Below are positions 1 to 41,115 of a stretch of 64,000 nucleotides of DNA, piece after piece. Source of the DNA: Mesotaenium endlicherianum (taxonomy: Eukaryota). Each line of letters opens with the position of its first letter. Position 1 is the stretch's first letter. The notes below the pieces were generated by a model that was not told where the DNA came from, ran no database searches, and was given only the letters and a program-made list of their open reading frames with translations. Location: contig WELA01001098.1 in assembly GCA_009602735.1 (NCBI GenBank), positions 151,345-215,344 on the forward strand, written 5' to 3'. Both the position numbers and the translations under genes were made by a program.

Positions 1-1490
1 GCTGAGGCCGTCAGCGTCCAGGTTCGTCGACCCTGGACGATGGTGCACGTCAAAGGTGTACTCCTGCAAGATGAGCGCCCACCGTGCGTACTTGCCTATC
101 AGGCACTCCGACGTCATGAGCCACTTGAGTGGCTGATGGTCGGTGACCAAGCGGAAGTGGGTGCCGTAGAGATAGTGCTTGAAATGCACAATCGCCCATA
201 TCGCTGCCAGGCACTCCCCCTCATAGGAGCCGTAGTTGCCCTCGGCACGGTTGTTGCTGCGGCTGGCGTACGCCACCACATGCTCGAAGCCGTCATGCTC
301 CTGTACCAGCACTGCTCCAAGCCCCGCCTGCGACCAGTTGGTGTGGAGGATGAAGGGCTTCTGATAGTCAGGCCGCCGTAAAACCGGGGCGCTCACCAAC
401 AGCTCCTTGAGCTTGTCAAACGCCGCCTGCTACTCTGGTCCCCATACGTAGGCAACGCCCTTGCGTAGCAAGTCGTTGAGCGGCTTGGCCAGCTCGCTGA
501 ACCCAGGCACAAAGCGACGATAGTAGTTGGCGGTGCCAAGGAAGGCCCTCAACTGCGAGAGGTCGGTCGGCGGCGGGATGCCTGTGATGGCCGAGATCTT
601 GGCCAGCTGAGGAGCCAAACCACTCTGGAAGATTGAAGATGCCCGAGGTACTCCACCTCCCGGGTCCCAAAGGTGCACTTGCCTAGATGACACTTGAGCC
701 CAACGGCCTCCAAGCGGTCCAGGATTGTAGTGATATGCGCCACGTGCTCCTCAAACGTCTCACTGAAGACGAGCACGTCATCGATGTAGCACCGGGCAAA
801 GGAGAGCCCTGCCAGCTCCTTATCCATGACTCGCTGGAAGGTGGCAGGAGCGTTCTTCAAGCCGAAGGGCTCAACCCTCCACTCGTAGAGACGCTGCGAT
901 CCCCAAAAAGCCGTTTTATGCTGGTCCTCCTCCGCAAGGGGTATCTGGTTGAAGCTCTGCCTCAAATCCAGCACCAAGAACCAAGTACAAGTACTGATGT
1001 CGTCGAAGATCTCGTCAGGGGTTGGCATAGGGTATCTGTCCTGCTCAGTGACCTCGTTAAGCTTACGATAGTCACCGCACATCCTCTTCTCCGACCAGTT
1101 GCCTGAGGCGTCCTTCTTAGCTGGCATGACTGTGGGCGCAGCGTAGGTGGAGGCAGACTCACGAATGAGTTGACCCTCCTCTAGCTTGCCTGTCTGCGTG
1201 CTGATCAGGTCGTCCTCAAAGCGGCTGTAGCGATAGCGCTTCTGGAAGATGGGCACGTCTGTCTGGAGGGGTATCCTCATAGGGTCGCCTGTGTAGCGCC
1301 CAAGATCGTGCATGCCGCTGGCAAAGCTGGCACTGCGCCATGCATCCAGCAATGCCGTCAGCTGAGCAGCCTGTGCTCCAGTGAGAGTCCCCCCCGGCTT
1401 CCAAGTAGGGACAACTGGTGGTGGCTCCTGCACTGCAGCTGGCGCCTCCTGCCCTGCTGCTGGCGTGATCTGTGGGGTTGCAGGCGTCAC
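1..1490 (-). pseudogene. pol: Family A reverse transcriptase + RNase H (frameshift near 635, stop at 430-432)
   Basis: RMCGDYRKLN, LDLRQSFNQI, PFGLKNAPATFQR, YIDD and LRAFLGTANYYRRFV. After the stop it reads FILHTNWSQAGLGAVL...YEGECLAAIWA...TDHQPLKWL...HRPG (RNase H). Confidence 0.93.
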
Positions 1491-1847
1491 CTGTCCTGCA
1501 GCTGGCTGCGCTCGGCTTGCCTCGGGTGCCTCCTTCTTGGCAGCTGCTGCCAGCTGCGCTGCACCACCTGTCGATGGCTGAGAACGTGGAAAAAGAAATG
1601 GGGAGCAAAACTCCCTGGGTCGCTGTGAGGACTCCTGTCTCCTCCTTCACCCCCCTAGCGAACCAGAACTAGGACCAGGACGCGGCGCAGGCGGCTGCTG
1701 AGAAGCTGGACCCTCGCGCTGGGAATGCCAGGTCGTACCAGGCGGGGCGTGGCCATCGCCGTCGGAATCTCGGTCCATGGCGTCGTAGGACTGGTCCATC
1801 TCAGGATGACGAGCCTGGGCGTAAAGGGGAGTCAGGGCCTGTGTCTG

Positions 1848-2790
1848 CAGAAGAAGCCACGTCAAGACGTTGGCATCGATAGCCTGGCCAAGGAGACGCA
1901 CGCACTTGACCTCGGTGATGCCGTCCACCTGTGTGAGGTGTGGAGGGAAACCCATCGCACGCTCCATCTCCACGGGGCCGCTGGAACATGCCGGTCTCGA
2001 GGTCAATGATCATTCCGCGCTGGTCGCCCACGTAGGCCGCGTTGTCGTAGCGACTCACGAACGTAGGAAGCGCCCGCGTGACGTCGTGGAGGACTTGACA
2101 CTGGGCCTGAGAAGGATGTGGAAGGGCGACCACGCGCTGGGCCAGGCGCGCCACGTCGAGGATGGAGTCAACGTTGCGCGTGTGGCGTGGATATGCAGCC
2201 GCTAATGCCTCAAGCGTGCCTTGCATGGCCAGGTTGGTGAAGTAAGCACGCACACGATGCGCGAAGGAACCGATCTGGGCGGCGTCGATGACTGCCTCAC
2301 GACCGACGTAGCTGCTGCAGAGGGAAAAGTCGGCGCTGACGTTGGGCCAAGAATCGTGGCGGACAGCCACGTTCTCCAACACCCAGGCGAGCGTGTGCGG
2401 CGGCTGGCGGTCCTCAACCATGTTGAGGACGCGGAGCAGGTGCCAGAACAAGGCCGTACGCGGGTCACCGAGCGCGCCGCCCCGTCCCGCAATGGAGAAG
2501 CCCTGGCACTCCCAGCCAGCAATGATGAGGTCGATGGGCCCGAGGCGCGTGATGTGCTCGGCTGTAATGTCGCGGATGACTATGGGCCAGTCAGTCTGGG
2601 CGCGGTAGAAGGCATGCTCAGGGAAGAGGTCCGGGAAACGCTCGTGGCACAAGGCCATCTGCCTGCGGGCGACCTGCTGCGCCTCGCCATCAGGGTCCAC
2701 GTAAACGTACCGACGTACGGGGATGCCAGCCTGCAGGGTGGCCAGCAACCCTGTCGCAATGCCGGCGAAGAGCTCAACAAGGACAATGCC
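1848..2790 (-). pseudogene. DNMT3-like C5 cytosine methyltransferase domain within the retrotransposon polyprotein (frameshift near 1975)
   Basis: Motif I VELFAGIATG, IV DLIIAGWECQGFS, VI WVLENV and VIII IDAAQIGSFAHRVRAYFTNL lie in ORF 1801-2931. Motifs IX-X, EMERAMGFPPHLT...RLLGQAID, lie in ORF 1647-2006. Confidence 0.92.
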
Positions 2791-3574
2791 GCCGGGACGC
2801 TCGTCAAGCTGTGCGGTGTAGATAGGCGTAGGAAGGGGGCGGCAGCCCAGGGCGGGATCGCCGGCCTGCGCTGGCGGTGGGTAGGAGCGCAGCAGATTGT
2901 GCTGATGGGGCGCCATGCGGAGGGCCGCCACTGCGAGCTCTGCGTAGTGGCGAGTAAGCCGAGGAATGCGCTCGAGCAGCGGCTGCGGGCGAGCCGTGCG
3001 AGAATGCGCTTGATAAGTGCGTCAGCGCGCACGCGCGTCCTGCAATGCCTCCTCGGGCACTGGGCGGGCCAGAGCCTGCGCGACGCGCACGCACTGCTGC
3101 TGCCACCGGTCCCTTGTCCTGTAGTCGGCGTGATGTGAAGCGGCGTGGGCTAGCTGCTCTGTGGCGGTGCGCTGGGGCAGCTGGGGATGCTGATCAAAGT
3201 ACGAACGCTGACGCTCGCGAAGATCCGCCTGGATAGGCACTGTGCAAACGGAGCGCTCGTCCCAATGTGCCGCCTATCGAGGACGGACGAGCTGACGTGG
3301 GGTGAGTTGGACTCGCAGGCGCAGCGGAGAAAGAGATGTGAGTCGGATGCGCTCCCACTGGCTGCGCTGCTTGAGCCCTGCACGTGGCGGTCGCAGGGGC
3401 GCGCAACGATGCGGGCCACCTTATGAGGAGGTGACCCAGACGGCCCGTCGTCGGCTATGTGGCTGCGCGGGACGGCGGCAGGCCAGCCAGGCGGCGTCTG
3501 GCATAATGCGTGGGCTGCAGTGGTGGAGGAAGCGTCATGCTCGCGAGTGCGGAGATCACGCGAACCGTCATACG

Positions 3575-3735
3575 GCGGTGTGACTGAGCACAGGCGCGTC
3601 TCGCGCAAAGGAGTGACTTCTCTCTCCTCGCAAATAGGAGTGACCTCCCGTGCGTCCCTGGGAGTGTTGTGCAGAGGTGTGACCTCACGGGCATCCCTGG
3701 TATGCTCGCGTATCGGGGTGACCTCGCGTGCGCAC
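3575..3735 (-). repeat. Coding tandem repeat REVTP (~39-bp and shorter units, 4-5 copies)
   Basis: AREVTPIREHTRD-AREVTPLHNTPRD-AREVTPICEE-REVTPL...SVTP in ORF 3150-3947. Confidence 0.8.
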
Positions 3736-4088
3736 CGGTCTAGTGGCATAGTGCGGCGTGCGAAGCGTAGAGCTGGCCCGGCGTAGGGGGAAGGACCTGT
3801 ACGCCCAGGACCGAGGATGCTGGACCTGGCCACTGTTTGCTGCGCACGTCTGGCTCGCGGGTTGATGGCGGAGAAAGGAGCCGTGGAGGCGGTGCTGGCG
3901 GAGGCGCGACCTGGCCAGCCTGTGCCCAGGCTGTTGCCAGCAAACAAGTGCGTGACGTCACGGCACTCGTTGCTGGTCGAACAGTCGTGCTGTATCGGAC
4001 GACTAGGCCCGCCGGCGCATGGATGGGCTCGACGGGGACTGGCCGTGGTCTCGTGAGAGAGAGAGCTAAAGCCGGGAGGCCCTGTAGG

Positions 4089-6794
4089 CTAGCGTCGGAC
4101 GCGAGCTGTAGGCGTGGGCGGCGGTGGCTCTGCCGACGGTTGGGCTGCGGGCTCCTCTGGGGCCTCCTGGGACCAATCCTGCCACTCCTCCTCCTCGCTG
4201 CTCAATGACGCGTCGTTGGACCTGCCTGGGAACGCTGCCTGCCTCATGGCCTCATCCTCAGACGTGGTAGTGCGTGGCCACGAGTTGCCTGTCTTGTACG
4301 ACGGTGCGGGTGAGGGCGACTGGGAGGTCATGCGGTATTGTATGGCGACCCCCACAGGCACGTCATGCCGTACGTGGACGTGTGATCTTGAGGAGGGTTT
4401 GCTCGTCGTAGGAGGCTGTGGCCTAGGTATGGCTGCTGCGGCTGTCGCTGCGTCATGAGCGTGCGCTGCAGCAGTAAGGGCAGCCGTGGCAATGGCGTGT
4501 GCCTTGACGGCGTCTGCCGCCATCTGACGCATCATGGCGTTATGCGCGGCGTAGATCCGCACTGTCTCCCTGGCTTGTGCGGCCAGAGCGTCAGCCTGCT
4601 TCTGGGGCGTGAGGTGGAGCACGGCACCAGACAGCTCGGGATCCTCCTCCTGCGTCTCCAGTAAGTCGGCGCCAACGAAGACCTCGTCATCCTCGGCTCC
4701 CCCCTTATCGGTCTGAACCACGGACCGACCGTCGTCCAGCGCCATGAAGCCGTAGAGGGCGGACTCAGCTGAGCGACGATCCAAGATGTCAAGTGGCACA
4801 GATGCAGTGCGGGTCCCCCCTGACTGCCAGTCGGGTCGGTTGAAGACCCGCTTTACCCAGTTGTCCACTGCGGCGCCGATAGGAAAGAGAATGTCCTGGC
4901 CAAGGAGCACGTCAAAGGTCTCAGAGCGAGTGACCAACGCGTGCCGGTGGATGATCGTCTCATCCGGAGTGCCGAACCGAAAGGCGAAGCGAAGGGCCAG
5001 CCGCGTGCGCCCGGTGACGGTCTCGGACGTGCCGGCCACAGTGTTGATCCGCGTCGGCGAATCCTTCAGGTCGGCTGACGAGAGGCCCAGCTGACAAAAG
5101 TAGCGCAGGCTGATGAGGACTGGCTGGGCGCCAGTGTCGAACATGATGCGCTGCGGGGCCTGCGTGTTGACCAGCACGATGCCCTGCAAATTATCCAAAA
5201 ACGCAGCGTTAGGCGTGCTGATCATCCTGCGCTCATGCGCAGGTCGCGCGGGCGCGGAGAGCACCGCGGCTGCCGCGTCTGACGCTGGCCTGCCGTCAAC
5301 GGCGCGCTGGCTGTCCCTGCACGATTGGAGCAATAACTGGGTTGCCTGCCGACTGGCCTCCATTGACACGCCGAGCTCCGCAAAGGAGACCGCGGGCATG
5401 CGGTGAAGCGCCAGCGAGATGACCTCGGCGTTGAGCTGCACCGTGGTCATCGACGAGGACATCGCGTGAGGCGCGAAGGCCGCTGGCGCTGCTGGCGTGT
5501 CCAGCACGCGGAACGAGCGGGGCAGACGCGGCGCCTCCTCCGTGCAACGCCCCTGATCTGGCCCGGCGCGCTTCTGTGCCACTGCTGGGCGTCCGGCTGC
5601 CACCAAAGCGTGCTTGCGCCGTGCGCTGCCGTCTGTTGTGTGGCCCCCAAGTGGCACTGTGCGTGTGCAGCAGGCCAGAATGGGGACGCACGCGGCTGTA
5701 GCAGCAGGCGCAGCCGCTGGGACAGCCGGCAAAAGAGCGGCTGGCGCAACTGGCGCTGGTGCGCCTGATGCGGGCGCTCCTGGCGCTGGCGCACCGGGCG
5801 TTGGGACACCTGGCGCTGGCGCACCTGGCGCTTTTGCAACTGGTGCCTCGGCAAACGCTGGCGCCGCCGTCGGAGCGGCTGCGGATGTCAGTGCAGCTTC
5901 GGGCGCAGACGCCTTTGCTGCTGGCGCAAACGCCGGAGCTGGCGCAGGCTTGGCTACTGGCAGGCTGACAAGTGGCGCTTTGAGAACGCCTCTGGGCCTG
6001 CCAGGTCGCTTCGCCCAACCGGGGCCGGTGTCGGTATCGGCTGCCCCAAGCAAGGCACGTGGCGCCCTCCAGGTAGCACGCGCGCTCGTCGGGACCCTCG
6101 CCACGCTTATCGCGCAGGCCCAAGGTTTTTGTGCGCAGCCAGGGTTTAAGCCCTGGCTGTGCGCAGCCGTGTGCGTGCCGTCGCAGCTCCGAACAAAAAT
6201 GCGACCGCACAGCGCGATCAAAGATGTCGCCCCCTGACTTGGGATGACAGTCGCGGCTGCCAAATCTGCGCTGGCTGGGCCAGACTGCGTGCGCGTGCCA
6301 AATGGCAGCACGGGTGCGCAGCTGCTGTACGCAGCCGCTGACGTGGTTGTCGTGAGGTGGTCGCGTGGCTGGCTGCTGAGCGAGCCCCGCAATGCGGTGC
6401 GCGGCGTGTGCGGGCGTGGGCAGACATGCGCGGATGTGCCGCTGCCGTCAGGCAGGGTCTCGCCAGCCGTGCATGCGTCAGGTGCGACGGCTGCTGGCGC
6501 GGCTGCCAGGATTGGCGCAGGTGCGGTTGCTGGGAGGCTGCCAAGTGGCGCCTCCCAATCACTCTTGGGGTTGCAGGGGTGCGTGGCCGGTCCGACATCA
6601 AGGTCGGTGTCGGTTGCCTCGGGCGCCGCTCGTGACGCCCTCCCCCCGGCACGTGCGTACGCCAAGGCCCCCGTAACGCGAATTGCGTGGGCGCGGGGGT
6701 TTTGTGCGCAGCCAGGGTTTAAGCCCTGGCTTTGCGCAGCCATGAGCGTGCCATCGGCACTCCGCCCGGCAATATGGCCGCACAACGCAATCAA
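4089..6794 (-). pseudogene. Family A polyprotein segment: Ala/Pro-rich linker + retropepsin aspartic protease (~4830-5200)
   Basis: IMFDTGAQPVLIS catalytic motif and downstream FDVLLGQDIL. Confidence 0.85.
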
Positions 6795-6960
6795 GATGCC
6801 TCCCCCTGACTGGGAATGGCGATCGCGGCCGCTGGATCTGCGCGGGCCGTGCCGGGCTGCGTGCGCGCGCCATGTGGAAGGACGTGTGCGCAGCTGGCGT
6901 GCGCAGCTGTTGCTGTGGCTGCCGAGCTGCGATCTTGTAGCTGGTTGCCCGGCAAGCCTC
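5940..6960. repeat. Diverged internal direct repeat (offset 573 bp); each unit has the hairpin AGCCAGGG-tttaag-CCCTGGCT
   Basis: Hairpin at 6137-6158 and 6710-6731. Peptide AA(Q/H)SQGLNPGCAQ occurs twice. Confidence 0.85.
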
Positions 6961-8915
6961 GCGCCGCCGTGTGCAATGTGAGCGGACGCGTGAGAGTGCG
7001 AGTGTGCGCGTGGCTACCGACAAGAGCGGCCTGGCCTGCCGGACACGCGGCAAGTGTCGGCGCCTGCTGGACCCAGTTGCCTGCAACAGCCAACAGGGGG
7101 AGGTCATCCTGGCGTTGCCGGCTGGTGCGCAGATCTGCGCACGAACTGGCGACGCGTACGGCAAAGGGTGCTGCAGCCGTGTGTGCTGCAAACGTGCCAC
7201 TCAGCTGGCGAGCGCGCCCAGTTGCGACACCCGTCGATGAGCAGACTGTCGGCAGTACTGCTAGCGTCGGCAGAGCGGCACAGGCCAGAGGGGCTGCTGG
7301 AGCCTGCGGTTGTGCTGGCGTGTGTGCCGGACCATGGACGGGCGCGTCGGAAGCTGCAATGTCTGTGACGCAGGGTGGCGGGGCCGCGTAAGCCTGCAAC
7401 CTGCCACCTAGCAGATTGACAGGACGAGGGGAGCGGTTGCTGACGGATATCGGCGTAGCGTGCGCAGGTCTGGCAGATCCGTCTGCACAAACGTCTGCGG
7501 CGCTGGTCGCCGTAGCTCTGTCAAGGGACGAGCGCGTGCGAGGCTGCAGCGCTGCTGTAGCGCCAGGTGTCAGCCTCTGGGGCTGCCACGTGTCAACATT
7601 GTGGCTGTGCGCAGGAGCTGCGCAGACGCCAGCTGCCGGAGTTGGAGCGTCGGACGGCGGAACGCGTGCGAAGAGGGCTCCGCATGCGTCGTAACTGTCG
7701 GCGGTGACGAGACCACGGAGTCTGGCGATCTCCGTATTGGCCTCCACGAGGGCGTCACTGACGTCGTTGATATTGTAGTAATCAACTCCGGGAGTCAGTG
7801 CGGCGTCCATCGTGGCCGTGGCTGCCGTCATCGAGGGGTGGCCACCCGTGCGAGGGTTACGGATGCCCCGAAGTCTTGCTGCGGGCGCAGGGCCGTCACG
7901 AGCGCGTCCGTTCTCAACGTCGCGCTTCTTCTGCAAGCATACAATCTGCAGGTGGCCGGCCTTGCCACAGTAGGTACAGTCACCGGGCTTGCCATTCTGC
8001 GCAATAGTGCAGTTCTAGCGAGAGTGGCCCGTCATCCCGCAAGACCAACAAGGGTCGCTCGTCATGGCGGCCATGGATGTGCGGTCACGCGGAGCCCCGC
8101 GCTGCTGGGTTTGCTGGGACAGCTGAGAGCGCTGGGGCTGTTGCTGCTGCTGGGGCTGGCGAGCCAGAGCTGGGTGCATTGTCGTGGATGGCAGCACCAA
8201 AGACTCCTGGCATACGCCCGTGGATGCGAGGCCAACATAGTCGCTAATGTTGCTCCGTGCGGCGGCCAAGCTCTGCTTCTCGACTGAGAGGTAAGCGTCC
8301 TCCAGCAAGTACTCGGAGCCGATGTGGTAGATGAGAGGAGCCATGGCTTGCTCCCTCAAACGTGGCTCTACGGCGCGCAAGAAGATCTCCGCTGCCTCCC
8401 GGTCAGTGACGGTGCCAACGTCTCGGCAAAGGTGCGTCAAGCGGCGGTACATCATGTGGATCGTCTTGTTCTTGCGGCGGAAGAAGTGGTGCAGGCTTTG
8501 TGCGTGCGTAGATCTCGTCACTCTTCTCACGGAAGGTGTCACGGGCCTCATAGAGGAGATAGCGCATGAGCGTATAGAGCACGTCACGCTTAGTGAGCGC
8601 GGGCGTCTTAAGCCTCGCGGACACGAACTCAGCCTCAAACTTTGAGATTGTGTCGTCCAGATCACAGGTTCCTGGTCTGTCGCTAAAGCGGAAGAGGGAG
8701 GACCTGTCAGCCTTGACCTCGTGGTCACTTGCTATGGGATACCAGGAATCGTGGTGAGCCCACTGGGAAGATGGCTCAGGGACAATCACCGGAAGTACGA
8801 GTGCTGGCTGCTCCCCATCATAGGGTTCAGTGACAGTACTGAGATCGGAGTCTGAGTCTTCTCCACTAACCCCTTTGTAGTGAGGCTGGTAAGCACGCCC
8901 ACTACGGGTAGGCAT
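6791..8915 (-). pseudogene. gag: Family A gag (frameshift ~8500, stop at 8015-8017), two zinc knuckles, long low-complexity tail
   Basis: Start MPTRSGRAY. Knuckles CWSCGMTGHSR*NC and CTYCGKAGHLQIVC (CX2CX4HX4C) are in frame with ORF 6791-7936. Confidence 0.8.
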
Positions 8916-8967
8916 ACGCTGAAGATTCTAATTGCGTGCAGGCAAAGAGAGATCTTTTTAGAAGTAA

Positions 8968-10480
8968 GGAGTGTGTACTCTCCAAAGTGAGCACCTCGAG
9001 ACTGTAATCTGGTAGGAAAACAACTAATGAAGTCTGGCCCAAAAGATCACTAGAAGCACATCATGATCTTCAAGAGTAGTCCTATGGCAGAGGGTATAAG
9101 TTGTGACTTTGCTCACCACTTGTGAAGTTCTTCTAGTGACTGGAAGCCAGCAAGGCTTGCTCTTCACAAGAGAGAGACTAAGTGGTCCTGAAAATACAAG
9201 AGATAAAAGTGTAAGCTTTACTGATAATCTCTGTGACTTACAACCGGCATAATGGGACTTCTAATATGATGTTCCTCTAGGGACATCTCTAGCACTTATA
9301 CTCCTGGAAACCCGGCATCATATGCGGCGGATCCAATGCATGTAGTCACTCTAGGAGGCTCTCCTATGTCCACTAATGTGTACAAGGCATGTACTAGCAC
9401 TCCTATAGGCTAAGCATAACTCAAACCAATCAAAGCAAAGCACGTAATATGCTAAGTGTCTCTCATTGGTGGAGCTTACCTTGGGTAGTTCTACCTAGAT
9501 AGCGCCTCAAAAGTGAATCTCGAACTTAAGGAAGCTTCCTCTAGGGGTAGGTGATGCAGTCACCAAGTTATAGCGTCAATGATGCACATATACTATGGAA
9601 ATGCAAGACTTATGTAGTCTAAAGGGCTCGCGGATTTGTGCGCACAAAGCTAGGGGTCCTTGGGGTCACGAATAGTCGACATTGTCACCTTTGGGTGCAT
9701 TGAGTCACAAGTTGGCCATTTGGTGTGATTCCGCTAGGTGCCGAAAGGGGTGCGGACTAGATCGCGTCTATCTCGCTCGATAATTAACCAAATGACCGGA
9801 GCGGTGCCATTCGAAAGATGCTTCGACGCGCTACACTTTGGTGACTTGGAAATCTAGAGAAGGTCATCATATGGATGCTGTAGTGATTTGAGTTATTATA
9901 TATTAGTATGCATATATTTTAATGTTTTCAAATATATTTGGAGTAGTATTGTGTGGAGTCAAGTGTGAATAGGTACTCTAGTAACTTGGTTCATGTCCTT
10001 TGAACCTTCCAAGACATTTTCGAAGTTAGAGGAAAGACCTAGAAGAACTCCATGTGGCAAAAGTCAGATGTGCCATTTTTAGGTCAAAAGGACATGTGTA
10101 CATTATTCTAGAAAGAGGTGGCAAGTTTTGGGATGTGTTGGGTGCCAACACATCAACATACACCTTCCTAGAAATTACTTATGTAGCAAGTATATAAACA
10201 AGAGCTAGAACATAGAAAGACATTCCAGAATCACTCTTGTACTTGCCAAAATCCAGAAATATATTAACTTTCAAGAAGCCATCTCTCTTTCAAGAAGCTA
10301 CCACTTGTGTTCAAAGATCCTTGTCTTGAATAGATAAAGTATTCTGTTATACTAAGTACTTTATCTATCTGGTTCACTACAGATGCGTAAAGTCAATGCA
10401 AAGTTGGTCTTCCTAGATTGATGGTTCACACACGTAGAGCTTGGTTTTGTACGTCAACCTCGACTTAATAAATCATGACA
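8968..10480 (-). repeat. Family A 5' terminal/LTR-like region, interrupted by a family C solo LTR
   Basis: The terminus TGTCATGATTTATTAAGTCGA resembles 30714 TGTCATGAATTATTGAGTCGA. 8968-9455 is the reverse-complement homolog of ~31465-31958. TATA-like GAGTATAAGT near 9300. Confidence 0.75.
9879..10381 (+). mobile_element. Family C solo LTR (503 bp)
   Basis: TGTAGTG...CACTACA with perfect 5-bp TSD GATGC (9874-9878, 10382-10386). Reverse complement of the LTRs at 34944 and 41116. Confidence 0.95.
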
Positions 10481-13367
10481 ATAACATTTTCAGACCTTAC
10501 CTGGATAAGTTTGTGCAAGTCTTCTTGGATGACATTTTCATTTTCTCTAAAGATGAAGCTCAGCATGGTGAACACTTAAAGACAGTCATGGACACTCTGA
10601 GAAGAAATCAGTCATATGCTAAAATGAGCAAGTGTGATTTCTTTGAGGAAAGTATTGAATTCTTAGGCCACGTTGTCAATGAAGACGGCATCAGTGTGGA
10701 TCCTAAGAAAGTCCACACTATAAGGGACTGGCCACTCCCACAGTCTGTCTCTGAAGTTAGACCCTTCCTTGGGTTGGCGAACTACTATAGGAGATTCATT
10801 GAAAATATTCTACAAAGGCCAGTAAACTGACTGACCTTACTAAGAAAGACATAGGGTATGCGTGGGGGGAAGAGTAGCAGGCTGCCTTCGAGACCCTTAA
10901 AGATGCTCTTTGTTCTGCCCGAGTGCTAGCCGTGTATGACCCCAGCAAACCTGTGCAGGTGGTTACTGATGCTTCTGACTTTGCCATGGGTGCTATTTTA
11001 TTGCAGCATGCTGACAAAACCACAAAGGATGGTAAGGTACGGCAGGAGTGGCACCTTGTGCTGTATGAGTCTATGAAATTCAACTCAGCTGAAATTAACT
11101 CTTCTTTGCATGATAAAGAGCTGCTTGCTATCATCCATGTGCTCAAACATTGGAGAGCATACTTACATGGTAAAGCTTTTAAGGTGATTACAGGTCATCT
11201 AGCTCTAACTCACTTTCAGAAGAAGTCCAAGCTGTCGATGAGGGGAACCGTTGGAGCCAGATGCTGGAGCAGTTCCAAGTCCAAATTGACTACAAACTAG
11301 GGAAGTTAAATCCTGCTGATGCACTCTCTAGGATACCTGACTTGCAAGAAAGGAACTTTTGTCAGCATGCTATAGATAAAGTCCTTTGTGCACTCATTTC
11401 ACTAAAGGTGAAAAAGTCCTTCCTTGAACAACTTAGGAAAGCCAACCTTTCTGACCCAACATTTGAGCCCAGCCCCACGGATGGTATGTGTCCTGCTACT
11501 GCACTCGGGTATAGGCTTAAGGGAGGGGTCTGGGTGACTGAAACCACTTCAGGCAGGCTGAAGCTGGTCATTCCTAATAATTTGGAAATAAGGTCTCTCT
11601 TACTGCGTCAAGCACATGACAGTTTACTGGGTGGGCATTTGGGGCAGGCCAAAACTGTTGACAAATTGGCAAAACATTATCATTGGGATGGGTTGCCTCG
11701 GGAGGTCTTGAAGTGTCAGAGAAATCAGTCTAGGCACACACCACCCGGGGGTCTTTTACAACCACTGCCCATACCAGCTGGACGTTGGGAAACAAAATCC
11801 ATGGACTGGGTGGTAACACTACCAAGAATTGCCAATGGGCATGATTCGATCCTGGTAGTAGTGGATAAACTGACAAAAATGGCATTTTTATCCCCACAAC
11901 TGTCAAAGTAACTGCACTCAAAACAGCAAGACAGTTCTACAACCATGTAGTATGCCAACATGGGCTCCCCTCTAATATCATCTAAGACAGAGAATCAAAA
12001 TATAACTAATGTCTGAAGAGCTTTATTGGGGTTAATGGGAGTCAAACAGCTGCTCAGCACAGCAAACCACCCTTAGACTGATGGGCAGACTGAAAGAACT
12101 AACCGAGTTCTGCAAGAGGTGCAAAGAGCATATATTAACCAAAAACAAGATAATTGGGGTGACCTGTTGGCTCAAATTCAATTTGCGATGAACAGTGCGG
12201 TACACGCGTCAACGGGCCAGACTCCTTTTGAACTCAGCCTGGGTAGAGTCCCTAAGTCTCCTTTAGATGTACTAGGAGAGTCTTTAACTCACCCTGAAGG
12301 GATTGACAATCCGATCTCCCTCCAGTTAACTCAGGTGTTTGCTGACACCCTGTCAGAAATCCAACAGAACTTGCACAAAGCCCAAGAAAATCAACAAAAA
12401 TACTTACCAAATAGGCGATCAACAATTAATAAAGATCTTCATATCAGCAAGTAATCTTTTATGGATCTTCCGTTGACTGATTAAACGGCAAAAGGACAAC
12501 ACACTAGCAGTGAACAACACTCGTTAATCAAATGCGAGTAAACTAGCATCAATAATGCTTTCAGTAAACTCATACATAAGCAAGGTTAGAAGACAGTGCG
12601 TATCAATGGCTTCTCGCCTTGGATTCAGATCTCTCTCAGTAAGCTGTACAAGAGAGTTGGCCTCGTTTCCGAATGCCGAACTCGAGAGCAATGCCTAGCA
12701 TATGTACATGGAATGAGTTTACTGTTCAACGGCCAGTGCGATGGCACCGCCTACCCGGGAGTTAACCACGTTGGTAGGACCTCGGTTAACCAAATCCACC
12801 GCCATCTCCCATCATCCCGAATTGCCATCCATCATAGGGATGTCATCTGGCCATTCATCTAGCATACCACACTTAGATGCATATCGAGGCAGTTCGCTGC
12901 TACCGAGTACGGAAGTCAGCTGGCTGTCAAAGAATGTGTCAGCAAGCTGACTTAAGTGGACTTCAGCCTGCTGCTTTCGGCTGAGTCATTAAACTGATAT
13001 TAAATATGAAGTCCAGCAGACTGATTATTAACTAGAGTTCAGCAGGTTGAACTTATTTAACTGTTATATTTAAATGAATATTATATCTACTAATATACTG
13101 ATTCATTACAAATCAGCACCATCGCGAGCTGACATTTTCTAAAGGCGATTTGGTCAAACTGCATTCTCACCACCTGTACCTGCCTGGTGTGGTCAAGAAA
13201 AAGCTCGGTCCGTTCTGGGTCGGTCCATATTCGGTGGGGCGCCGTGTCGGTCAGAATGCTTACAAATTGAACATGTCAGCAGAATACAAGGGTCATCCAA
13301 TATTTAATGTCTCCTTCCTGGAACCGTACGTCAAAGATGACACACTGTTTACAGGTCGGTTACCCGT
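10481..13367 (+). pseudogene. pol: Family B copy B0: decayed pol fragment (RT C-terminal half, RNase H, integrase)
   Basis: [17 protein letters not shown] and AHDSLLGGH...SMDWV. Colinear with intact pol ~20443-22650, with many stops and frameshifts. Confidence 0.92.
12402..13110 (-). mobile_element. Family B solo LTR inserted antisense into B0 integrase; left junction eroded by ~20 bp
   Basis: Reverse complement of LTR 16826-17545, ending ATTCATTACA. Host pol resumes at AATCAGCACC. Confidence 0.9.
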
Positions 13368-14090
13368 TGAATTGAATCGACTTACCAAATAGGCGATTAA
13401 TGATAAATGAAGATCTTTATATCAGCAAGTAATCTTTATGGTATTTTCTGTTGATGGTTTAAACAACAAAAGACAACACACTAGCAGTGGACAATACTTG
13501 CAAGTCAAATGGAAGTAAACTAGCATCAATGATGCAATCAGTAAACTTGTACATAAGGAAGGCTAGAAGACAGTGCATATCAATGGCTTCTCGCCTTGGA
13601 TTTAGATCCTCTTAGTAAGTTGTACAAGAGAGTTGGTCATGTTTCTGAATGCCGAAATCGAGAGCAATACCTAGCATATGTACATGGAATGAGTTTACTG
13701 TTCAACGGCCAGTGCGATGGCACCGCCTACCAGGGAGTTAACCATGTTGGTAGGACCTCAGTTAACCATAATCCACCGCCATCTCCCATCATCCTAAATC
13801 GTCATCCATCCTAAGGATGTCATCTTGCCATTCATCTAGCACACCACACTTAGATGCATATTTGGGCAATTCGCTGCTACCGAGTATGGAAGTCAGCTAG
13901 CTGGCTGTCAAAGAATGTGTCAGCAAGTTGACCTAAGTTGACTTCAGCGTGCTGCTCCCGGCTGAGTCATTAAACTAATTATTTAATAAGGTCCAGCAGA
14001 CTCCATATTAAATAAAGTTCAGCAGGCTGAACTTATTTAGCTATTTAATTTAAATGAATATTATATCTAGCAATATACTGGTTCATTACA
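13368..14090 (-). repeat. B1 3' LTR
   Basis: Plus-strand TGAATTGAATCG...TTCATTACA, followed by the reverse-complemented PPT TCCCTCCAACTT. Confidence 0.92.
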
Positions 14091-14203
14091 ATCCCTCCAA
14101 CTTAACAAGTTGTCGCCTCGACAACACTAACACTGGGTACATGGTTTTCCCCAACTGAAAGTATTGGGCTCCCTCCCACCGCCTCTTGCTCCAACACTGA
14201 TGT

Positions 14204-15946
14204 CTAACTGTGGGGATTACTAGTAACAGTGTGCTGTCCCTCCGCCCTCAGCCTACTGCCCTTATGAAGGAGATCTTCCTGGGGCTCTACGGTCATGGGA
14301 GCGAGACCGGGAGCCAGACCTCCTCCTCTGTCTTGGGGTCTCCTGAAGCCTGGGGGCTTCGAGTAGGGGGAACCAAGGGGAGAACGCAGTAACTGGGATG
14401 TTTCCTCCTGCACACTCTCAAAATGAAGGGAGGCAGCCTTCTCCAGGGCATTCCTCAAACTGACAGGTACATATACCGACATCTCAGAAGGATGTTGCAT
14501 GACATGAGCCAAGGGCACATGTCCTCTCTGCAAGGGAGATGCTGGCAGGCCTCTGGCTATTTCTATAGCAGTCCTATTTCTCCTGTCTGCCCTGTCTGAG
14601 TGGGTCTCTGCGCCTGCAGATGGGCTCTGTCCTCTGGCAATTTCCAGCCAAGTGATATCTTCCTCTCAACGAGCTGGTGCAGAGCTATGTCTGCCCTGGC
14701 CAACCCAGTCTTTTTCATTACAAGGGATGTGGCAGGTGTCTGGGTCACAGCGGGGCTAGTGTCCTCTTCCTCGCCTTCCTCCTCTTCTTCCTCTTACTCC
14801 TCCTCTTCTTCCCCTCGCTCCTCTGAGACTGCTGGGGTCTCCTCTGTCAGCTGCTCCAACTCTTCCCGAGAAAAAGAATACCCCACTGACCTTCCCCTTT
14901 TGGGTGCTGGTGGGGGCTGTTGAGTCCGGACCACATACAGGTCTTTCTCTCCCTGCTTGCTTGCCCATTTGGCATAAGCGTGCTTCCCTTTAGAGAATGA
15001 CTCTTGGGCCCTGCTCCTGTCCTCCTGCATTAGAGAATGACTCATGCAGTCTCTTACTCCATCCAATCTTGGGTCCCAAGCTGCAATGTGAGGGGGCAAC
15101 ACTATGTTCCCCTGTAGGTCTGTTAGGAAATCTTCCTCCCCTGCCCTGTCATTTTGCTGGTCCCTCATGTTAATGGTCATCCATCGTTAATCGGTGGGCT
15201 TTTGGAAGAAGGCAGGGTCCGTCCTTTTCAGCGTACAAGGGTACCAATGCCCTGCGAAGTCCAGCTGACTGGTTTCCCTGGCCAAGAATTTCCAGCTCTT
15301 TCTCTCCACCTCATTATACATGGCCTTAAACCTGTTATGGGATGTAGTGTCCTTAAAGCTGTCCGCGTCCATGGGGATCATCCTGATGACCCTATCTTTC
15401 CCCCAAATACTCGGAATCGATACAGCTCCTTCCTCATTCACTTGGGCCATTGCCTTGGCCTCTCTGATATCGTGGTAGAGGAGGAGTCCTGTGCTGACCT
15501 CTATGTACTTGTCAAAGTTTTCAGATGTCTCCCCTTCCCTCTCCAGGATGTCCTTCTGCGACTCACTGCGACTTCTCTGGGCATACTTGAAGGCCTCCTC
15601 CAGTAGATCAAAGCCCTTGCCCAGCACTGTGTAGCGGTAGCTGCTGATTATCCTCTGTACTTCTTCTTCAACCTGCTGCTTCCGCCTCTCCTCAGCTTGC
15701 CTCTCCTCCTCTGCCTTCTTGGCCTCCTCTGCAGCTTGTCTGTCCAATTCTTCCTGCCTCAGCCTGGCCTGTTCCTCCTCCTTCTTCTTCTTCTGTGCCT
15801 CCCGCTGTTGTTAGAGTCGTTGCGATTCCCGAGCGGAGATGGAGGATGATTTGATGTCGCCACAAAATTGCAAGTATTTTGCATGTGCCTCTTCCACTCT
15901 TCTCTTCCTCTTAAGTTCCAACTTCTAAGTCATCTTGCTCAATCAT
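14204..15946 (-). pseudogene. B1 extra 3' ORF (unknown function), broken by stops; homolog of 23235-24920
   Basis: Shared blocks YRYTV, SFKDT, YNEVERxSW, HWxPC, PTD*RWMT, LPPxIAxWDPRL, FSKGKHA, GRSVxYS and GHVPLAxV. Confidence 0.85.
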
Positions 15947-16825: not shown

Positions 16826-17545
16826 TGTAATGAATCAGTATATTAGTAGATATAATGTTCAGTTAAATAAAATAGTTAATTCAGTTCAGCCTGCTGAACA
16901 CTAGTTAATAATCAGTCTGCTGGACTTATTATTTAATATCAGTTTAATGACTCAGCCGGAAGCAGCACGCTGAAGTCCACTTAAGTCAGCTTGCTGACAC
17001 ATTCTTTGACAGCCAGCTGACTTCCGTACTCGGTAGCAGCGAACTGCCTGGATATGCATCTAAGTACGATATGCTAGATGAATGGCCAGATGACATCCCT
17101 ATGGTGGATGGCTATTCGGGATGATGGGAGATGGCGGTGAATTTGGTTAACCGAGGTCCTAGCAACGTGGTTAACTCCCGGGTAGGCGGTGCCATCGCAC
17201 TGACCGTTGAACAGTAAACTCATTCCATGTACATATGCTAGGCACTGCTCTCGAGTTCGGCATTCGGAAACGAGGCCAACTCTCTTGTACAGCTTACTGA
17301 GAGAGATCTGAATCCAAGGCGAGAAGCCATTCATACGCACTGTCTTCTAACCTTGCTTATGTATGAGTTTACTGATTTGCATTATTGATGCTAGTTTACT
17401 CGCATTTGACTTACGAGTATTATTCACTGCTAGTGTGTTGTCCTTTGCCGTGTAACCAGTTAATGAAAATACCATAAAGATTACTTGTTGATATGAAGAT
17501 CTTTATTAATTGTTAATCGCCTATTTGGTAAGACGATTCATTTCA
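16826..17545 (+). repeat. B2 5' LTR (720 bp)
   Basis: TGTAATGAATC...GATTCATTTCA; near-identical to 25034-25753. Confidence 0.97.
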
Positions 17546-17546
17546 G

Positions 17547-17558
17547 TGGTATCGGAGC
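17547..17558 (+). promoter_or_regulatory. Primer binding site, tRNA-iMet type
   Basis: TGGTATCGGAGC 1 nt after the LTR (canonical plant form TGGTATCAGAGC). Confidence 0.9.
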
Positions 17559-17579
17559 AGTTATCACAGTCTTCTTTGT

Positions 17580-19098
17580 ATGGTAAGGACAATGTCTCAA
17601 ACTAGCAACTCCCGAGACATGGAGAACCAGGATAACGAGAATGTCAAAAACCAGGCGGAAAGCCATGTAGCGGGAACCCGTACCTCATCTGAAGCAGTAG
17701 CAAATACTGCAGCTAGAGAGGCTGCAGATGAGGCAGCTGCTATTGCCGCAGTCGCAGCACAGCAAGCTGAGGAGGAGAGAGCCAGATCAGAAGCTGAACA
17801 AGTAGCAAAGGCCGTTGAAGATACAGAAAGGAGGGAAGGACAGCCAGCTGACGAGCGCACTGCTGAAGAACTTATGGCTTCAAGGGCCAATGTTCAGAAC
17901 CCACCTCCTGCTGTACAACTCAATGTACCCCTAGGTCAAATACGTGACCGGCTGAATGCGGCAGGAATTGCTGCTGCAGGAGCAAGAGGGATTGTTGAGG
18001 ACACTACTCAGCGAGTAGAGGCCAATGCTGCTGCTGCGTTTGCTAATCTACCACCCCAAAGTGTAGACTTGGGAGCATTGTTCGTTCAGATTCAGTCGCA
18101 AATGGCGACCATGTATCAGTCCCAGCAGGAGGACAAAAGAATCATAATGTCCCTACTGCGGGACAGAGACCAACTGGGGTCTCAAACCACTAGTGGTGGT
18201 GGCCGAGGGCCTAGTAAGCCCAAGCCGAAACCTCCCCAGGACTATGATCCTGAGGGAAACAGAAAATATTACCTGATCAAGTTTCTCGCGGATGTTGAGC
18301 AGTGGCTGGAGAACTACCCAGAACTGCAAGATCACGACAAGGTCAGGCACACCGGTGCGCTACTGAAAGGCAGTGCCGCAGACTGGTGGCTATACTGGAA
18401 AGGAGAGCGTAAAGCTCGGCAACTCGGTGACCCTACGTGGGTAGAGTTTGTGGAGAAACTGCATGAGAAGTTTGATGTCATCAACCAGCAGGAGAAAGCT
18501 ATCTATGCGATGATCTCCCTGACACTGAAGCAGACCACTTCAATTGCTGAGTTTGCTCAAAAGTTCCAAGAGAACATGATGAAGCAGTCAGATTTGCCAG
18601 AACGGTATAGGATAGCATACTTCAGGTATGGCTTGAAATCCGAGGTCTCTGGTCATTTTGCTGAGAAAAAGTATGAGAAACTGGCTGACTTGATCCAGGA
18701 TGCTGACGCCTGGGATCAGCAGCAGTTCAATCACAAGCGCCAGAGTAACGCTTTGGTGTCTAAGATTGTCAAAAAGCCCCACGGTTCCTACAATGCAGTT
18801 GAAGGAGACCAGGCTGAGGATAATCAGGGTGATGAATATGAGTATGAGTACAATGCTATTCAGTCTAGNTGATGAATATGAGTAGGAGTATAATGCCATA
18901 CAGTCTAGAGGTAGAGGTGGTTTCTCTCGGGGCGGCTATGGAAGAGGTGGTGGTAGGACTAAGCCAAGACCAGCCTCAGCAAAATCCACTTGCTACCATT
19001 GCCAGCAGTTGGGCCACTACCAAGAACAGTGTCCAGTCAAGCACCTTCCGAAAGACGAGAGAAAAGACCAGCCTTTAAAAGACAGCAACAGTCAGTAA
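17580..19098 (+). CDS. gag: B2 Gag (open once the N plus 39-bp duplication at 18869 is removed)
   Basis: MVRT start, [19 protein letters not shown], and C-terminal knuckle [14 protein letters not shown]. 1519-40=1479 nt, divisible by 3. Confidence 0.88.
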
Positions 19099-22000: not shown

Positions 22001-22904
22001 CTGGAAAGCTTTAATGGGGTTAATGGGAGTCACACAGCTGCTCAGCACAGCAAACCACCCTCAGACTGATGGGCAGACTGAAAGAACTAACCGAGTTCTG
22101 CAGGAGGTGCTGAGAGCATATATTAACCAAAAACAAGATAATTGGGATGACCTGTTGCCTCAAATTCAGTTTGCGGTCAACAGTGCGGTGCACGCGTCAA
22201 CGGGCAAGACTCCTTTTGAACTCAGCCTGGGTACAGTCCCTAGGTCTCCTCTAGATGTGCTGGGGGAGTCTTTAGCTCACCCTGAAGGGATTGACAACCC
22301 GGTCTCCCTCCAGTTAACTCAGGAGTTTGCTGACACCCTGTCAGAAGTCCAACAAAACCTGCACAAAGCCCAAGCAAACCAACAAAAATACGCTAATCAA
22401 CACCGTCGGGAGCTTACATTTTCAAGAGGCGATTTAGTCAAACTGCATTCTCAGCACCTGTACCTCCCTGGTGTGGCCAAGAAAAAGCTTGGCCCTGTCT
22501 GGGTCGGTCCATATTCGGTGGTGCGTCGTGTCGGTCAGAATGCTTACAAATTGAACATGTCAGCCGAATACAAGGGTCACCAGGTCTTTAATGTCTCCTT
22601 CCTGGAACCATACATCAAGGGTGATACACTGTTCACAGGTCGGTTACCTGTTCAACCGGGACCGGTCCCCGCTGTCAGGGACGGCGACTCTGACGAATAT
22701 GAGGTTGAGGAGATTTTAGACGCGCGCTCGGTCCGTCGATCGTCTAAATATGTCATGAAATACCTCATTCGATGGAAGGGTTACGATGCCTCTGGGGACA
22801 CTTGGGATTTTAAGGGCCATTTGACCAATGCCAAAGGGGCGTTGAAACGGTTCCACCTTCGGGCCGCTGGAGCCACAGTCATTTCAGTTGACACGGGAAG
22901 GTGA
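18990..22904 (+). CDS. pol: B2 Pol: protease, RT, RNase H, integrase, chromodomain (probably via -1 frameshift)
   Basis: FVDGGAS, FLDD, TDASD, HHCC, SMDW/SDRD/QTER, GPY and EYEVEEILD...[15 protein letters not shown]; 1304 aa open. Confidence 0.97.
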
Positions 22905-24920: not shown

Positions 24921-25033
24921 GGTGACAGGCTGAAGAGGCTGTCAGTAAGGGAGGCTGGTCAGGTTCAATCACTTTAGTTAAAGCTTTGCAGTTTAATGTT
25001 GTCGAGGCGACAACAAGTTAAGTTGGAGGGATT

Positions 25034-25753
25034 TGCAATGAATCAGTATATTAGTAGATATAATGTTCAGTTAAATATGATAGTCAATTCAGTTCAGCCT
25101 GCTGAACACTAGTTAATAATCAGTCTGCTGGACTTATTATTTAATATCAGTTTAATGACTCAGCCGGAAGCAGCAGGCTGAAGTCCACTTAAGTCAGCTT
25201 GCTGACACATTCTTTGACAGCCAGCTGACTTCCGTACTCAGTAGCAGCGAACTGCCTGGATATGCATCTAAGTACGATATGCTAGATGAATGGCCAGATG
25301 ACATCCCTATGGTGGATGGCTATTCGGGATGATGGAAGATGGCGGTGAATTTGGTTAACCGAGGTCCTACCAACATGGTTAACTCCCGGGTAGGCGGTGC
25401 CATCGCACTGACCGTTGAACAGTAAACTCATTCCATGTACATATGCTAGGCATTGCTCTCAAGTTCGGCATTCAGAAACGAGGCCAACTCTCTTGTACAG
25501 CTTACTGAGAGAGATCTGAATCCAAGGCGAGAAGCCATTCATACGCACTGTCTTCTAACCTTGCTTATGTATGAGTTTACTGATTTGCATTATTGATGCT
25601 AGTTTACTCGCATTTGACTTACAAGTATTATTCACTGCTAGTGTGTTGTCCTTTGCCGTGTAACCAGTTAACGGAAATACCATAAAGATTACTTGCTGAT
25701 ATAAAGATCTTTATTAATTGTTAATCGCCTATTTGGTAAGACGATTCATTTCA
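25034..25753 (+). repeat. B2 3' LTR (720 bp), preceded by PPT AAGTTGGAGGGA
   Basis: Direct repeat of 16826-17545. Confidence 0.97.
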
Positions 25754-25758
25754 ACTTT

Positions 25759-34943: not shown

Positions 34944-35442
34944 TGTAGTGAAACAGATAGATAAAGTACTTAGTAAAACAGAATACTTTATCTATTCAAG
35001 ACAAGGATCTTTGAACACAAGTGGTAGCTTCTTGAAAGAGAGATGGCTTCTTGAAAGTTAATATATTTCTGGATTTTGGCAAGTACAAGAGTGATTCTCG
35101 AATGTCTTTCTATGTTCTAGCTCTTGTTTATAAACTTGCTACATAAGTAATTTCTAGAACAGTGTATGTTGATGTGTTGGCACCCAACACATCCCAAATC
35201 TTGCCACCTCTTTCTAGAATAATGTACACATGTCCTTTTGACCTAAAAATGGCACATTTGACTTTTGCCACATGGAGTTCTTCTAGGTCTTTCCTCTAAC
35301 TTCAAAAATGCCTTGGAAGGTTCAAAGGACATGAACCAAGTTACTAGAGTACCTATTCACACTTGACTCCACACAATACTACTCCACATATATTTGAAAA
35401 CATTAAAATATAAGCAAACATATAATAACTCAAATCACTACA
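34944..35442 (-). repeat. C 3' LTR (499 bp)
   Basis: TGTAGTG...CACTACA. Confidence 0.96.
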
Positions 35443-35477
35443 TCACCCCCCGATAGAAAAAGCGCCGTCTCGGCGCG

Positions 35478-41078: not shown

Positions 41079-41115
41079 CTTCTTGTGCTACCAAAGTGCC
41101 TAGCTCCGATACCAC

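What the first reader, a model, noticed from the sequence alone, without database searches (positions are those of the whole stretch)
1848..2931. Ty3/gypsy retrotransposon with its own DNMT3-like cytosine methyltransferase between protease and RT
Seen: ordered C5-MTase motifs I, IV, VI, VIII, IX and X, on the same strand and colinear with PR and RT, with no intron. Several blocks track DNMT3 closely: FAGIATGLL vs FDGIATGLL, AHRVRAYFTNL vs AHRARYFWGNL, EMERAMGFP vs EMERVFGFP. Known: DNMT-carrying retrotransposons are rare and were reported in Symbiodinium and charophyte algae (de Mendoza et al. 2018, Nat Commun). Inference: the MTase is released from the polyprotein into the particle and could methylate the new cDNA or the insertion site. 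This copy is frameshifted, so an intact sibling would be the active form.
Basis: partly seen in the sequence, partly recalled or inferred. Interest (0 to 1): 0.9.

Follow-up and report, generated by a model that had tools for sequence, protein, structure and literature searches.

The report
Jumping gene carrying a DNA methyltransferase
This is a broken copy of a repeated green-plant retrotransposon whose polyprotein includes a DNMT3-like DNA methyltransferase, a kind already described in the alga Klebsormidium, but here the enzyme has glutamate in place of a normally invariant active-site proline and likely marks the element's own new DNA copies.

Summary
Observation confirmed. A minus-strand Ty3/gypsy element carries an intronless C5-methyltransferase (PF00145, E 4.7e-11; best PDB sequence and fold matches DNMT3A/B/C) between protease and RT. 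This copy is dead: several stops and frameshifts, one inside the domain. Sibling contigs from a run of a matching organism cover the whole domain, so it is no one-off insertion. The kind is published (KnitGypsy-Dnmt3, de Mendoza 2018), and this scan met it before in a moss genome.

Not found in my literature searches: (1) motif IV reads Glu-Cys, not Pro-Cys, here and in 90 of 155 relatives, switching at least 7 times on the tree; (2) the lineage spans Klebsormidium, Mesostigma and Closterium, plus a sister clade (including Scenedesmus) with the domain between RNase H and integrase; (3) relatives end A-coding-B-A-B with 4-bp target duplications and a conserved palindromic B|A junction, which suggests integration from a circle; (4) two relatives have a UAG-CARYYA readthrough signal right after the methyltransferase. 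Methylation of new cDNA is inferred, not shown: the Klebsormidium enzyme was inactive in yeast and this element is not CpG-depleted.

The parts
8966..9681 (-). 5' terminal repeat (likely the 'A' repeat); outer limit uncertain
   Evidence: 8966-9482 matches 31441-31958 at 85%; summed contig depth 130,000-170,000 over 8961-9600 against 800-22,000 inside the element. The outer limit 9681 rests only on a TGTC start like that of relatives, which could be chance.
7925..8930 (-). gag-like region with a CCHC zinc knuckle (7937-7978), broken by a frame change and a stop
   Evidence: No Pfam hit; tblastn of Closterium P0005 residues 61-235 at E 2e-5; C-x2-C-x4-H-x4-C seen directly.
5300..7900 (-). long Pro/Ala-rich linker with an internal duplication (5917-6497 / 6490-7070, 69%)
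4791..5276 (-). aspartic protease (FDTG at 5141-5130)
   Evidence: PF13650 E 2.4e-6; 37% identical to P0003
2830..4790 (-). protease-to-methyltransferase linker, about 2 kb, with stops at 4089-4091, 3274-3276 and 3022-3024 and at least one frame change
   Evidence: P0007 aligns from 3327; sibling contigs differ from the window at the stops 3274-3276 and 3022-3024; 4089-4091 was not among the rows shown
1990..2811 (-). DNMT3-like C5-methyltransferase, motifs I-VIII and target-recognition region; motif IV is W-E-C-Q
   Evidence: PF00145; PDB sequence search; AlphaFold pLDDT 92.8; Foldseek best DNMT3A E 1e-13
1836..1970 (-). methyltransferase motifs IX and X, in another frame
   Evidence: relatives align here in frame -3 at 33-54% identity
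1281..1835 (-). methyltransferase-to-RT linker with a stop at 1647-1649
   Evidence: 33 sibling contigs of run X1 differ from the window at that stop; no CARYYA signal follows it
639..1280 (-). reverse transcriptase (YIDD at 788-777)
   Evidence: PF00078 E 1.9e-31
1..420 (-). RNase H, with Asn at the usual first catalytic Asp (LHTNWS, 348-331); runs off the window before integrase
   Evidence: PF17917 E 9e-37. That this position is normally Asp is recalled; relative P0005 reads LYTDWS.

Best explanation
This is a decayed copy of a repeated Ty3/gypsy retrotransposon whose gag-pol polyprotein carries a DNMT3-like cytosine methyltransferase between protease and RT, and in active ancestors that domain was likely cut out by the protease, packaged in the particle and used to methylate the newly made cDNA before integration. 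Shown: layout, DNMT3 fold, presence in siblings, long-term conservation, and decay of this copy. Shown in relatives only: downstream integrase and PHD finger, A-coding-B-A-B ends with 4-bp target duplications, and in two elements a readthrough-type stop after the domain. Inferred: protease release, packaging, activity of the Glu-Cys enzyme, cDNA as substrate, and integration by cutting a circular cDNA at the palindromic B|A junction. I put the identity at about 0.97 and the self-methylation mechanism at about 0.55.
For: PF00145 and DNMT3 matches. Among 155 relatives the catalytic Cys is kept in 154, the ENV Glu in 153 (2 gaps), the motif VIII arginines in 146 and 144, and the first glycine of motif I in 144 (11 gaps). 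Between two uninterrupted relatives (L129, L161) the domain has dN 0.21 with saturated synonymous sites, like protease (0.23) and below the linker (0.52). 1,090 contigs of run X1 lie on 1560-3400 and cover 30 of 30 bins. In 62 of 80 metagenome loci RT or RNase H follows the domain and in 58 of 80 protease precedes it. In L129 and L161 a single TAG-CAA-TCA stop follows the domain, matching the plant-virus readthrough signal CARYYA (PMC4132726); this would make Gag-protease-methyltransferase the abundant product, as expected for a particle component. Two SymbioDIRS-Dnmt3 domains methylate CG de novo in yeast (PMC5890265).
Against: The K. nitens gypsy domain gave no methylation in yeast; the authors call this inconclusive because DNMT3B also failed. 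The proline before the catalytic Cys is described as invariant, and a rice DRM3 with Cys but no Pro was predicted inactive (PMC2965745). CpG observed/expected is 1.03 in the domain, 1.07 in protease and 0.75 in RT-RNase H, against 0.41-0.66 in four chromovirus ORFs of the same window; self-methylation at CG would predict the reverse, although the same test also failed for the active SymbioDIRS elements and relative L082 is depleted (0.34). The domain evolves 3-6 times faster than RT, RNase H and integrase. Summed depth over RT is about twice that over the domain, so some related copies may lack it or be more diverged. No protease cleavage site was tested.
Confidence: 0.55

Rival explanations
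1. The domain is a pseudo-enzyme or trap: it binds DNA (or forms the covalent cysteine adduct) without net methylation, shielding the cDNA or competing with host methyltransferases, so it works against silencing.
For: Missing proline in 101 of 155 relatives; no CpG depletion in this element while its neighbours are depleted; no activity for the K. nitens domain in yeast.
Against: SAM-binding and catalytic residues stay almost invariant, unlike DRM3 and DNMT3L, which lose them. Glu and Pro interchange at least 7 times, which fits two working states better than loss of function. The one K. nitens protein I identified has the proline (P0063).
Confidence: 0.17
2. The enzyme is active but its target is not bulk CG in cDNA: it methylates non-CG sites, the element's RNA or RNA:DNA hybrid, the palindromic B|A junction, or chromatin at the insertion site.
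For: No CpG depletion; the B|A junction GACA-GC-TGTC is kept across distant families and holds a symmetric CHG site; the sister clade places the domain next to integrase; relatives carry a PHD finger.
Against: No CHG depletion in the coding parts either (0.97-1.28). Decay of relatives at CG (0.22) and CHG (0.24) against CHH (0.08) is what host MET1 and CMT would give. No direct test.
Confidence: 0.22
3. The domain is a neutral passenger, or a one-off capture or nested insertion of a host DNMT3, bacterial or viral gene into this copy.
For: This copy is broken; the linker before the domain is unusually long; some sibling contigs skip parts of it.
Against: Same layout in K. nitens, Mesostigma, Closterium and 80 metagenome loci; DNMT and RT trees agree; purifying selection. 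Best viral matches are only 24-41% identical over short stretches, E 4e-11 or worse. The only hit in 185,579 prokaryote genomes is itself a whole gypsy pol on a 9-kb MAG contig.
Confidence: 0.04

Closest known systems
KnitGypsy-Dnmt3 of Klebsormidium nitens (de Mendoza et al. 2018, PMC5890265)
   Same: Intronless, unrearranged DNMT3-like domain in a gypsy polyprotein; K. nitens GAQ93235.1 (P0063, which I take to be such a copy) has zinc knuckle-protease-DNMT order, is 34% identical over the domain and lies on the same side of the tree. The paper's legend notes DIRS-like repeats, as I find in relatives.
   Different: Motif IV is WECQ here and FPCQ in P0063. P0063 and three close relatives end at the same place just after the domain, whereas siblings of this element appear to read on into RT. 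I could not see the paper's figures, so its drawn domain order is not checked.
SymbioDIRS-Dnmt3 of Symbiodinium (same paper)
   Same: DNMT3 domain in Pol; split repeats A-coding-B-A-B; shown to methylate CG in yeast.
   Different: Uses a tyrosine recombinase. Relatives of this element have an rve integrase, no recombinase in the Pfam scan and 4-bp target duplications.
EpiLTRs of Cymbomonas and Euglena (bioRxiv 10.64898/2026.05.21.726589)
   Same: LTR retrotransposons carrying a cytosine methyltransferase.
   Different: Their DNMT is sister to DNMT4 and comes with a DAM domain and a chromodomain; here the domain is DNMT3-like and relatives carry PHD, no DAM or chromodomain.
Mammalian DNMT3A/3B catalytic domain; plant DNMT3 and DRM
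   Same: Best sequence and fold matches; family profile E 2e-27 to DNMT3A, 7.5e-14 to DRM, 6e-10 to HhaI; TM about 0.6-0.68.
   Different: No PWWP/ADD or UBA domains, motifs not permuted as in DRM, an insertion after motif II, Glu for the motif IV Pro.

Membership tests
Streptophyte Gypsy-DNMT3 (KnitGypsy-Dnmt3 kind) | Gypsy-order pol: protease, RT, RNase H, then integrase | tested here: met
   Protease-RT-RNase H in the window; integrase lies outside the window and follows RNase H in relatives.
Streptophyte Gypsy-DNMT3 (KnitGypsy-Dnmt3 kind) | Intronless, unrearranged DNMT3-type domain inside the polyprotein | tested here: met
   colinear with uninterrupted relatives such as P0163 and P0193.
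Streptophyte Gypsy-DNMT3 (KnitGypsy-Dnmt3 kind) | Clusters with K. nitens copies apart from host DNMT3 | tested here: inconclusive
   Same side of a 96-supported branch as P0063, but the tree is FastTree, unrooted, has no host DNMT3 rows, and the window row is long (1.11).
Streptophyte Gypsy-DNMT3 (KnitGypsy-Dnmt3 kind) | Split direct repeats A-coding-B-A-B | not testable with these tools
   The 3' end is outside the window and no genome is held; attempts inside the window gave nothing. Met in relatives: 8 complete cases among 43 loci with a repeat hit.
Streptophyte Gypsy-DNMT3 (KnitGypsy-Dnmt3 kind) | Purifying selection on the methyltransferase | tested here: met
   In relatives: dN 0.21 with saturated dS for L129 vs L161. 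Among 53 decayed copies pN/pS was 0.61 (transitions) and 0.36 (transversions), but RT gave 0.67 and 1.69, so that test is noisy. Not tested on the window's own family.
Active DNA C5-methyltransferase | Motif I FxGxG, catalytic Cys, ENV, RxR, motifs IX and X | tested here: met
   All present, but IX and X are out of frame in this copy.
Active DNA C5-methyltransferase | Proline before the catalytic Cys (PC motif) | tested here: not met
   Glu in the window and in 90 of 155 relatives; Pro in 54.
Active DNA C5-methyltransferase | SAM-dependent 5mC formation | not testable with these tools
   Needs biochemistry.
DIRS / Ngaro (tyrosine-recombinase retrotransposons) | Tyrosine recombinase, no DDE integrase | tested here: not met
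   Relatives carry rve and H2C2 integrase domains and no recombinase among 14 proteins scanned; 4-bp target duplications.
Chromovirus | C-terminal chromodomain and RT in the chromovirus branch | tested here: not met
   Relatives end in PHD; the window's own chromovirus RTs are set apart by a branch of support 100 (only 3 outgroup rows).
Troyka | CG..CG termini and 3-bp target duplication (PMC12440569) | tested here: not met
   Relatives have TGTC..GACA termini and 4-bp duplications.
REXdb non-chromovirus Phygy clade | RT/RH/INT phylogeny with reference sequences | not tested
   No reference sequences were available as tool sequences; only passages of PMC6317226 read.

The most novel reading that the evidence does not exclude
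The element belongs to an ancient green-plant lineage of gypsy retrotransposons, from chlorophytes to bryophytes, that integrate not from linear cDNA ends but by cutting a circular cDNA at an internal palindromic attachment site, and that load their particles with a DNMT3 variant working with Glu-Cys instead of the 'invariant' Pro-Cys; the enzyme marks the new cDNA, possibly protecting one of the two identical junctions on the circle from the integrase.
Probability: 0.2. Interest if true: 0.85.

Novelty: new variant of a known kind. Interest (0 to 1): 0.55.

Why it matters
Whether gypsy-borne DNMT3 is active, and why a transposon would carry its own silencing enzyme, has been open since 2018; the one domain tested gave no signal. 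This family offers many natural, diverged, uninterrupted domains in two active-site states and two polyprotein positions, which makes the question directly testable. A working Glu-Cys enzyme would overturn the rule that loss of the motif IV proline marks a dead methyltransferase. The conserved palindromic junction with 4-bp target duplications points to an integration route unusual for DDE integrases. The copy in the window is itself only a fossil.

Tried and rejected
No whole genome is held, so intact siblings and the element's 3' end could not be searched. No RNA holder was listed. RNA runs X18, X21 and X24 gave no read on the methyltransferase; X18 had 60 reads, almost all on the terminal repeat; this is no test of expression. 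Small-share runs were not used for habitat or host. Attempts to find a B repeat or B|A junction in the window failed: local alignments did not beat shuffles and GACA-N(1-2)-TGTC occurs 5 times in 64 kb. Two viral-contig scans gave only distant phage-type methylases and no locus of the second layout, so its ends are unknown. Co-variation of Glu/Pro with two other columns (Thr 70% vs 9%; motif X Arg 59% vs 12%) was not significant on 7 independent pairs (p 0.22 and 0.25). The first, better-model DNMT tree did not finish; FastTree was used. Glu-Cys in 74 of 80 loci and in all 53 distinct copies is partly circular, because the search pattern demanded GW[EP]C. Context of window-versus-sibling differences (12 CG, 8 CHG, 9 CHH, 11 other; best 40 of 174 rows) is too thin to name the host pathway. 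The protein atlas gave no answer for the gag region. Troyka was considered from memory and rejected after reading. A programmed readthrough in the window's own element was looked for and not found.

Full report
WHAT IS IN THE WINDOW. The minus strand from about 9680 to 1 holds one retrotransposon: terminal repeat, gag-like region with a CCHC knuckle, Pro/Ala-rich linker, protease, about 2 kb of linker, C5-methyltransferase, RT and RNase H, running off the window before integrase. Of 12 ORFs scanned, four hit Pfam: PF00145 (E 4.7e-11), RVT_1, RT_RNaseH and aspartyl protease. Motifs I-VIII are in one frame and IX-X in another, with the break at about 1966-1990. The copy also has several stops and other frame changes, so it is dead. 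The domain is DNMT3-like by single-sequence search (first 29 of 44 PDB matches), by family profile (DNMT3A E 2e-27, DRM 7.5e-14, HhaI 6e-10) and by fold (pLDDT 92.8; Foldseek best DNMT3A E 1e-13, all listed rows DNMT3).

IS IT A FAMILY FEATURE? Yes. In run X1, which may be the source of the window and so is not independent, 1,090 contigs lie on 1560-3400 and cover 30 of 30 bins; individual contigs have depth 45-57 while summed depth over the domain is 2,900-15,800. That suggests on the order of a hundred or more copies, though the tool warns that depth is no copy number. Siblings differ from the window at the stops 1647-1649, 3022-3024, 3274-3276 and 8015-8017, so these look copy-specific. No difference at the motif IV codons was among the 40 rows shown of 174. 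Summed depth over RT is about twice that over the domain, and single contigs show internal deletions.

BREADTH. 1,800 clusters at 50% identity match at E up to 0.001, 403 at 1e-10 and 55 at 1e-30; I examined the best 150 plus five in all; the weaker hits may be ordinary methylases. By layout: 7 have the domain before RT, 14 have protease directly before it, 79 have it after RT or RNase H or just before integrase, 55 are too short to tell. Of 30 clusters looked up, names came from Klebsormidium nitens, Mesostigma viride and Closterium for the first layout and Scenedesmus sp. PABB004 for the second. In the DNMT tree (139 of 156 rows, 230 residues or longer) one branch of support 96 separates 19 rows of the first layout, including the window, from 78 of the second. 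The RT tree (74 rows) agrees: 43 second-layout rows on one side at support 93. One capture followed by relocation is the simplest reading, but neither tree has a proper outgroup. A Calypogeia fissa (liverwort) RT-RNase H is 84% identical to a methyltransferase-bearing element; its own upstream DNA was not seen. The host of the window is not identified; its nearest named relatives are streptophytes.

ACTIVE SITE. Motif IV reads W-E-C-Q. Among 155 relatives the residue before Cys is Glu in 90, Pro in 54, Ser in 7, Asp in 3, Cys in 1; Cys itself is kept in 154. Glu and Pro need 12 changes on the tree, at least 7 forced by well-supported branches, against 38 for shuffled labels. Pro to Glu needs two base changes, and neither one-step intermediate (Ala, Gln) was seen. 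So Glu is a maintained state, not decay. PMC2965745 (passages) calls this proline invariant and predicts inactivity without it. One paper search on the point listed no such variant, but I saw only the listing and read passages of one paper.

ENDS AND EXPRESSION SIGNALS, SEEN IN RELATIVES ONLY. The best 80 of 287 metagenome loci are protease-DNMT-RT-RNase H-integrase-PHD elements or pieces of them; many are repeats of the same family or locus (53 distinct of 74 projected). 43 loci hit the terminal repeats of L082, and 8 show the full A-coding-B-A-B. Of these 8, five have an exact 4-bp target duplication (two are the same locus), two have one mismatch, one has none. Termini are TGTC..GACA, a G-rich polypurine tract precedes the first B, no tRNA-like primer site is evident after A (judged by eye), and the internal B|A junction is the palindrome GACA-GC-TGTC or a transition variant. 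The same junction lies 419-431 bases after the ORF in two distant Pro-Cys elements, L129 and L161. My inference: reverse transcription gives (BA)-coding-(BA), the ends join into a circle, and integrase cuts one internal B|A junction, yielding A-coding-B-A-B. Six loci with A-coding-B could come from double cutting or from B-B recombination. In L129 and L161 one in-frame TAG-CAA-TCA separates Gag-protease-DNMT from a 1,047-residue RT-RNase H-integrase-PHD frame, matching the readthrough signal CARYYA (PMC4132726, passages); two cases only, and other families, including the window's, read straight through.

SELECTION AND COMPOSITION. L129 versus L161: dN 0.21 for the domain, 0.23 protease, 0.03-0.07 RT, RNase H and integrase, 0.52 linker, with synonymous sites at or near saturation. 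Against self-methylation at CG: the window element has CpG observed/expected 1.03 in the domain and 0.75-1.07 elsewhere in coding parts, while two chromovirus families in the same window have 0.41-0.66. Relatives in another host decay at CG and CHG about three times faster than at CHH, as host silencing would cause.

MECHANISM. Best reading (0.55): the domain is released by the protease, rides in the particle and methylates new cDNA, so that the copy enters the genome pre-marked. Rivals: a different substrate or context, including the junction or the target site (0.22); a non-methylating binder or decoy (0.17); passenger or one-off insertion (0.04). Only identity, conservation and decay are shown.

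COMPARISON WITH PRINT. PMC5890265 (abstract, parts 1-4 of 7 of the main text, passages of two supplementary files; figures and Supplementary Figs 13-15 not seen, and they may show the domain order and motif IV of the K. nitens copies) describes KnitGypsy-Dnmt3, notes DIRS-like repeats in a legend, and found no yeast activity. PMC12344493 (passages) and bioRxiv 10.64898/2026.05.21.726589 (passages; supplements closed) cite the kind for streptophytes only. Also read: PMC10952607, bioRxiv 10.1101/2022.06.16.496473 and PMC6317226 (passages), PMC12440569 (parts 1-3 of 5). Ten searches listed no paper, by title or abstract start, on the chlorophyte layout, the Glu-Cys motif, the junction or the readthrough; the search for the family's names returned only the 2018 paper and the 2026 preprint. 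The library lacks most subscription papers and Repbase.

VERDICT. Real, correctly identified, a new variant of a known kind. The copy is a fossil; the value lies in the family. Interest 0.55.

Noticed in passing
L129:4661-4669 and L161:3489-3497: Single in-frame TAG followed by CAA-TCA (CARYYA) between the methyltransferase and RT, so the gag/pol-type expression boundary sits after the methyltransferase; K. nitens P0063 and three relatives also end just after the domain.
   Followed up: partly
L082, L085, L098, L114, L145, L159; L129:8235; L161:7051: A-coding-PPT-B-A-B ends with 4-bp target duplications and a palindromic GACA-GC-TGTC junction conserved across distant families.
   Followed up: yes
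P0085, P0179 (Scenedesmus), P0057, P0022 and 75 other proteins: Sister clade with the methyltransferase between RNase H and integrase, then PHD; Pfam misses the domain in some (P0057), so such elements are easily overlooked.
   Followed up: partly
window 31441-31958 and 33541-33912 (+): Pieces related to the element's 5' repeat (85%) and gag start (72%), separated by other repeats; a second, fragmented family member or two remnants.
   Followed up: partly
window 17532-22901 (+), 25030-30150 (-), 10480-13370 (+), 34944-41618 (-): Two chromovirus-type gypsy families; 34944-41618 is a full element with 97.6% identical LTRs and open gag and pol with chromodomain.
   Followed up: no
L161 (CADCWO010000201.1): A contig filed in a cyanobacterial metagenome-assembled genome is a eukaryote-type gypsy-DNMT element, probably a binning contaminant.
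   Followed up: partly
window 51829-54309: Exact 1,240-bp tandem duplication (100% identity), possibly an assembly artefact.
   Followed up: no
window 47300-51300 and 58870-64000 (+): GC-rich host genes in pieces: a protein kinase and an SNF2-related helicase; the methyltransferase element resembles them in GC and CpG content more than it resembles the neighbouring transposons.
   Followed up: no
P0214 (Calypogeia fissa): Liverwort RT-RNase H 84% identical to a methyltransferase-bearing element from metagenome locus L082; suggests the family in liverworts or transfer between bryophytes.
   Followed up: no
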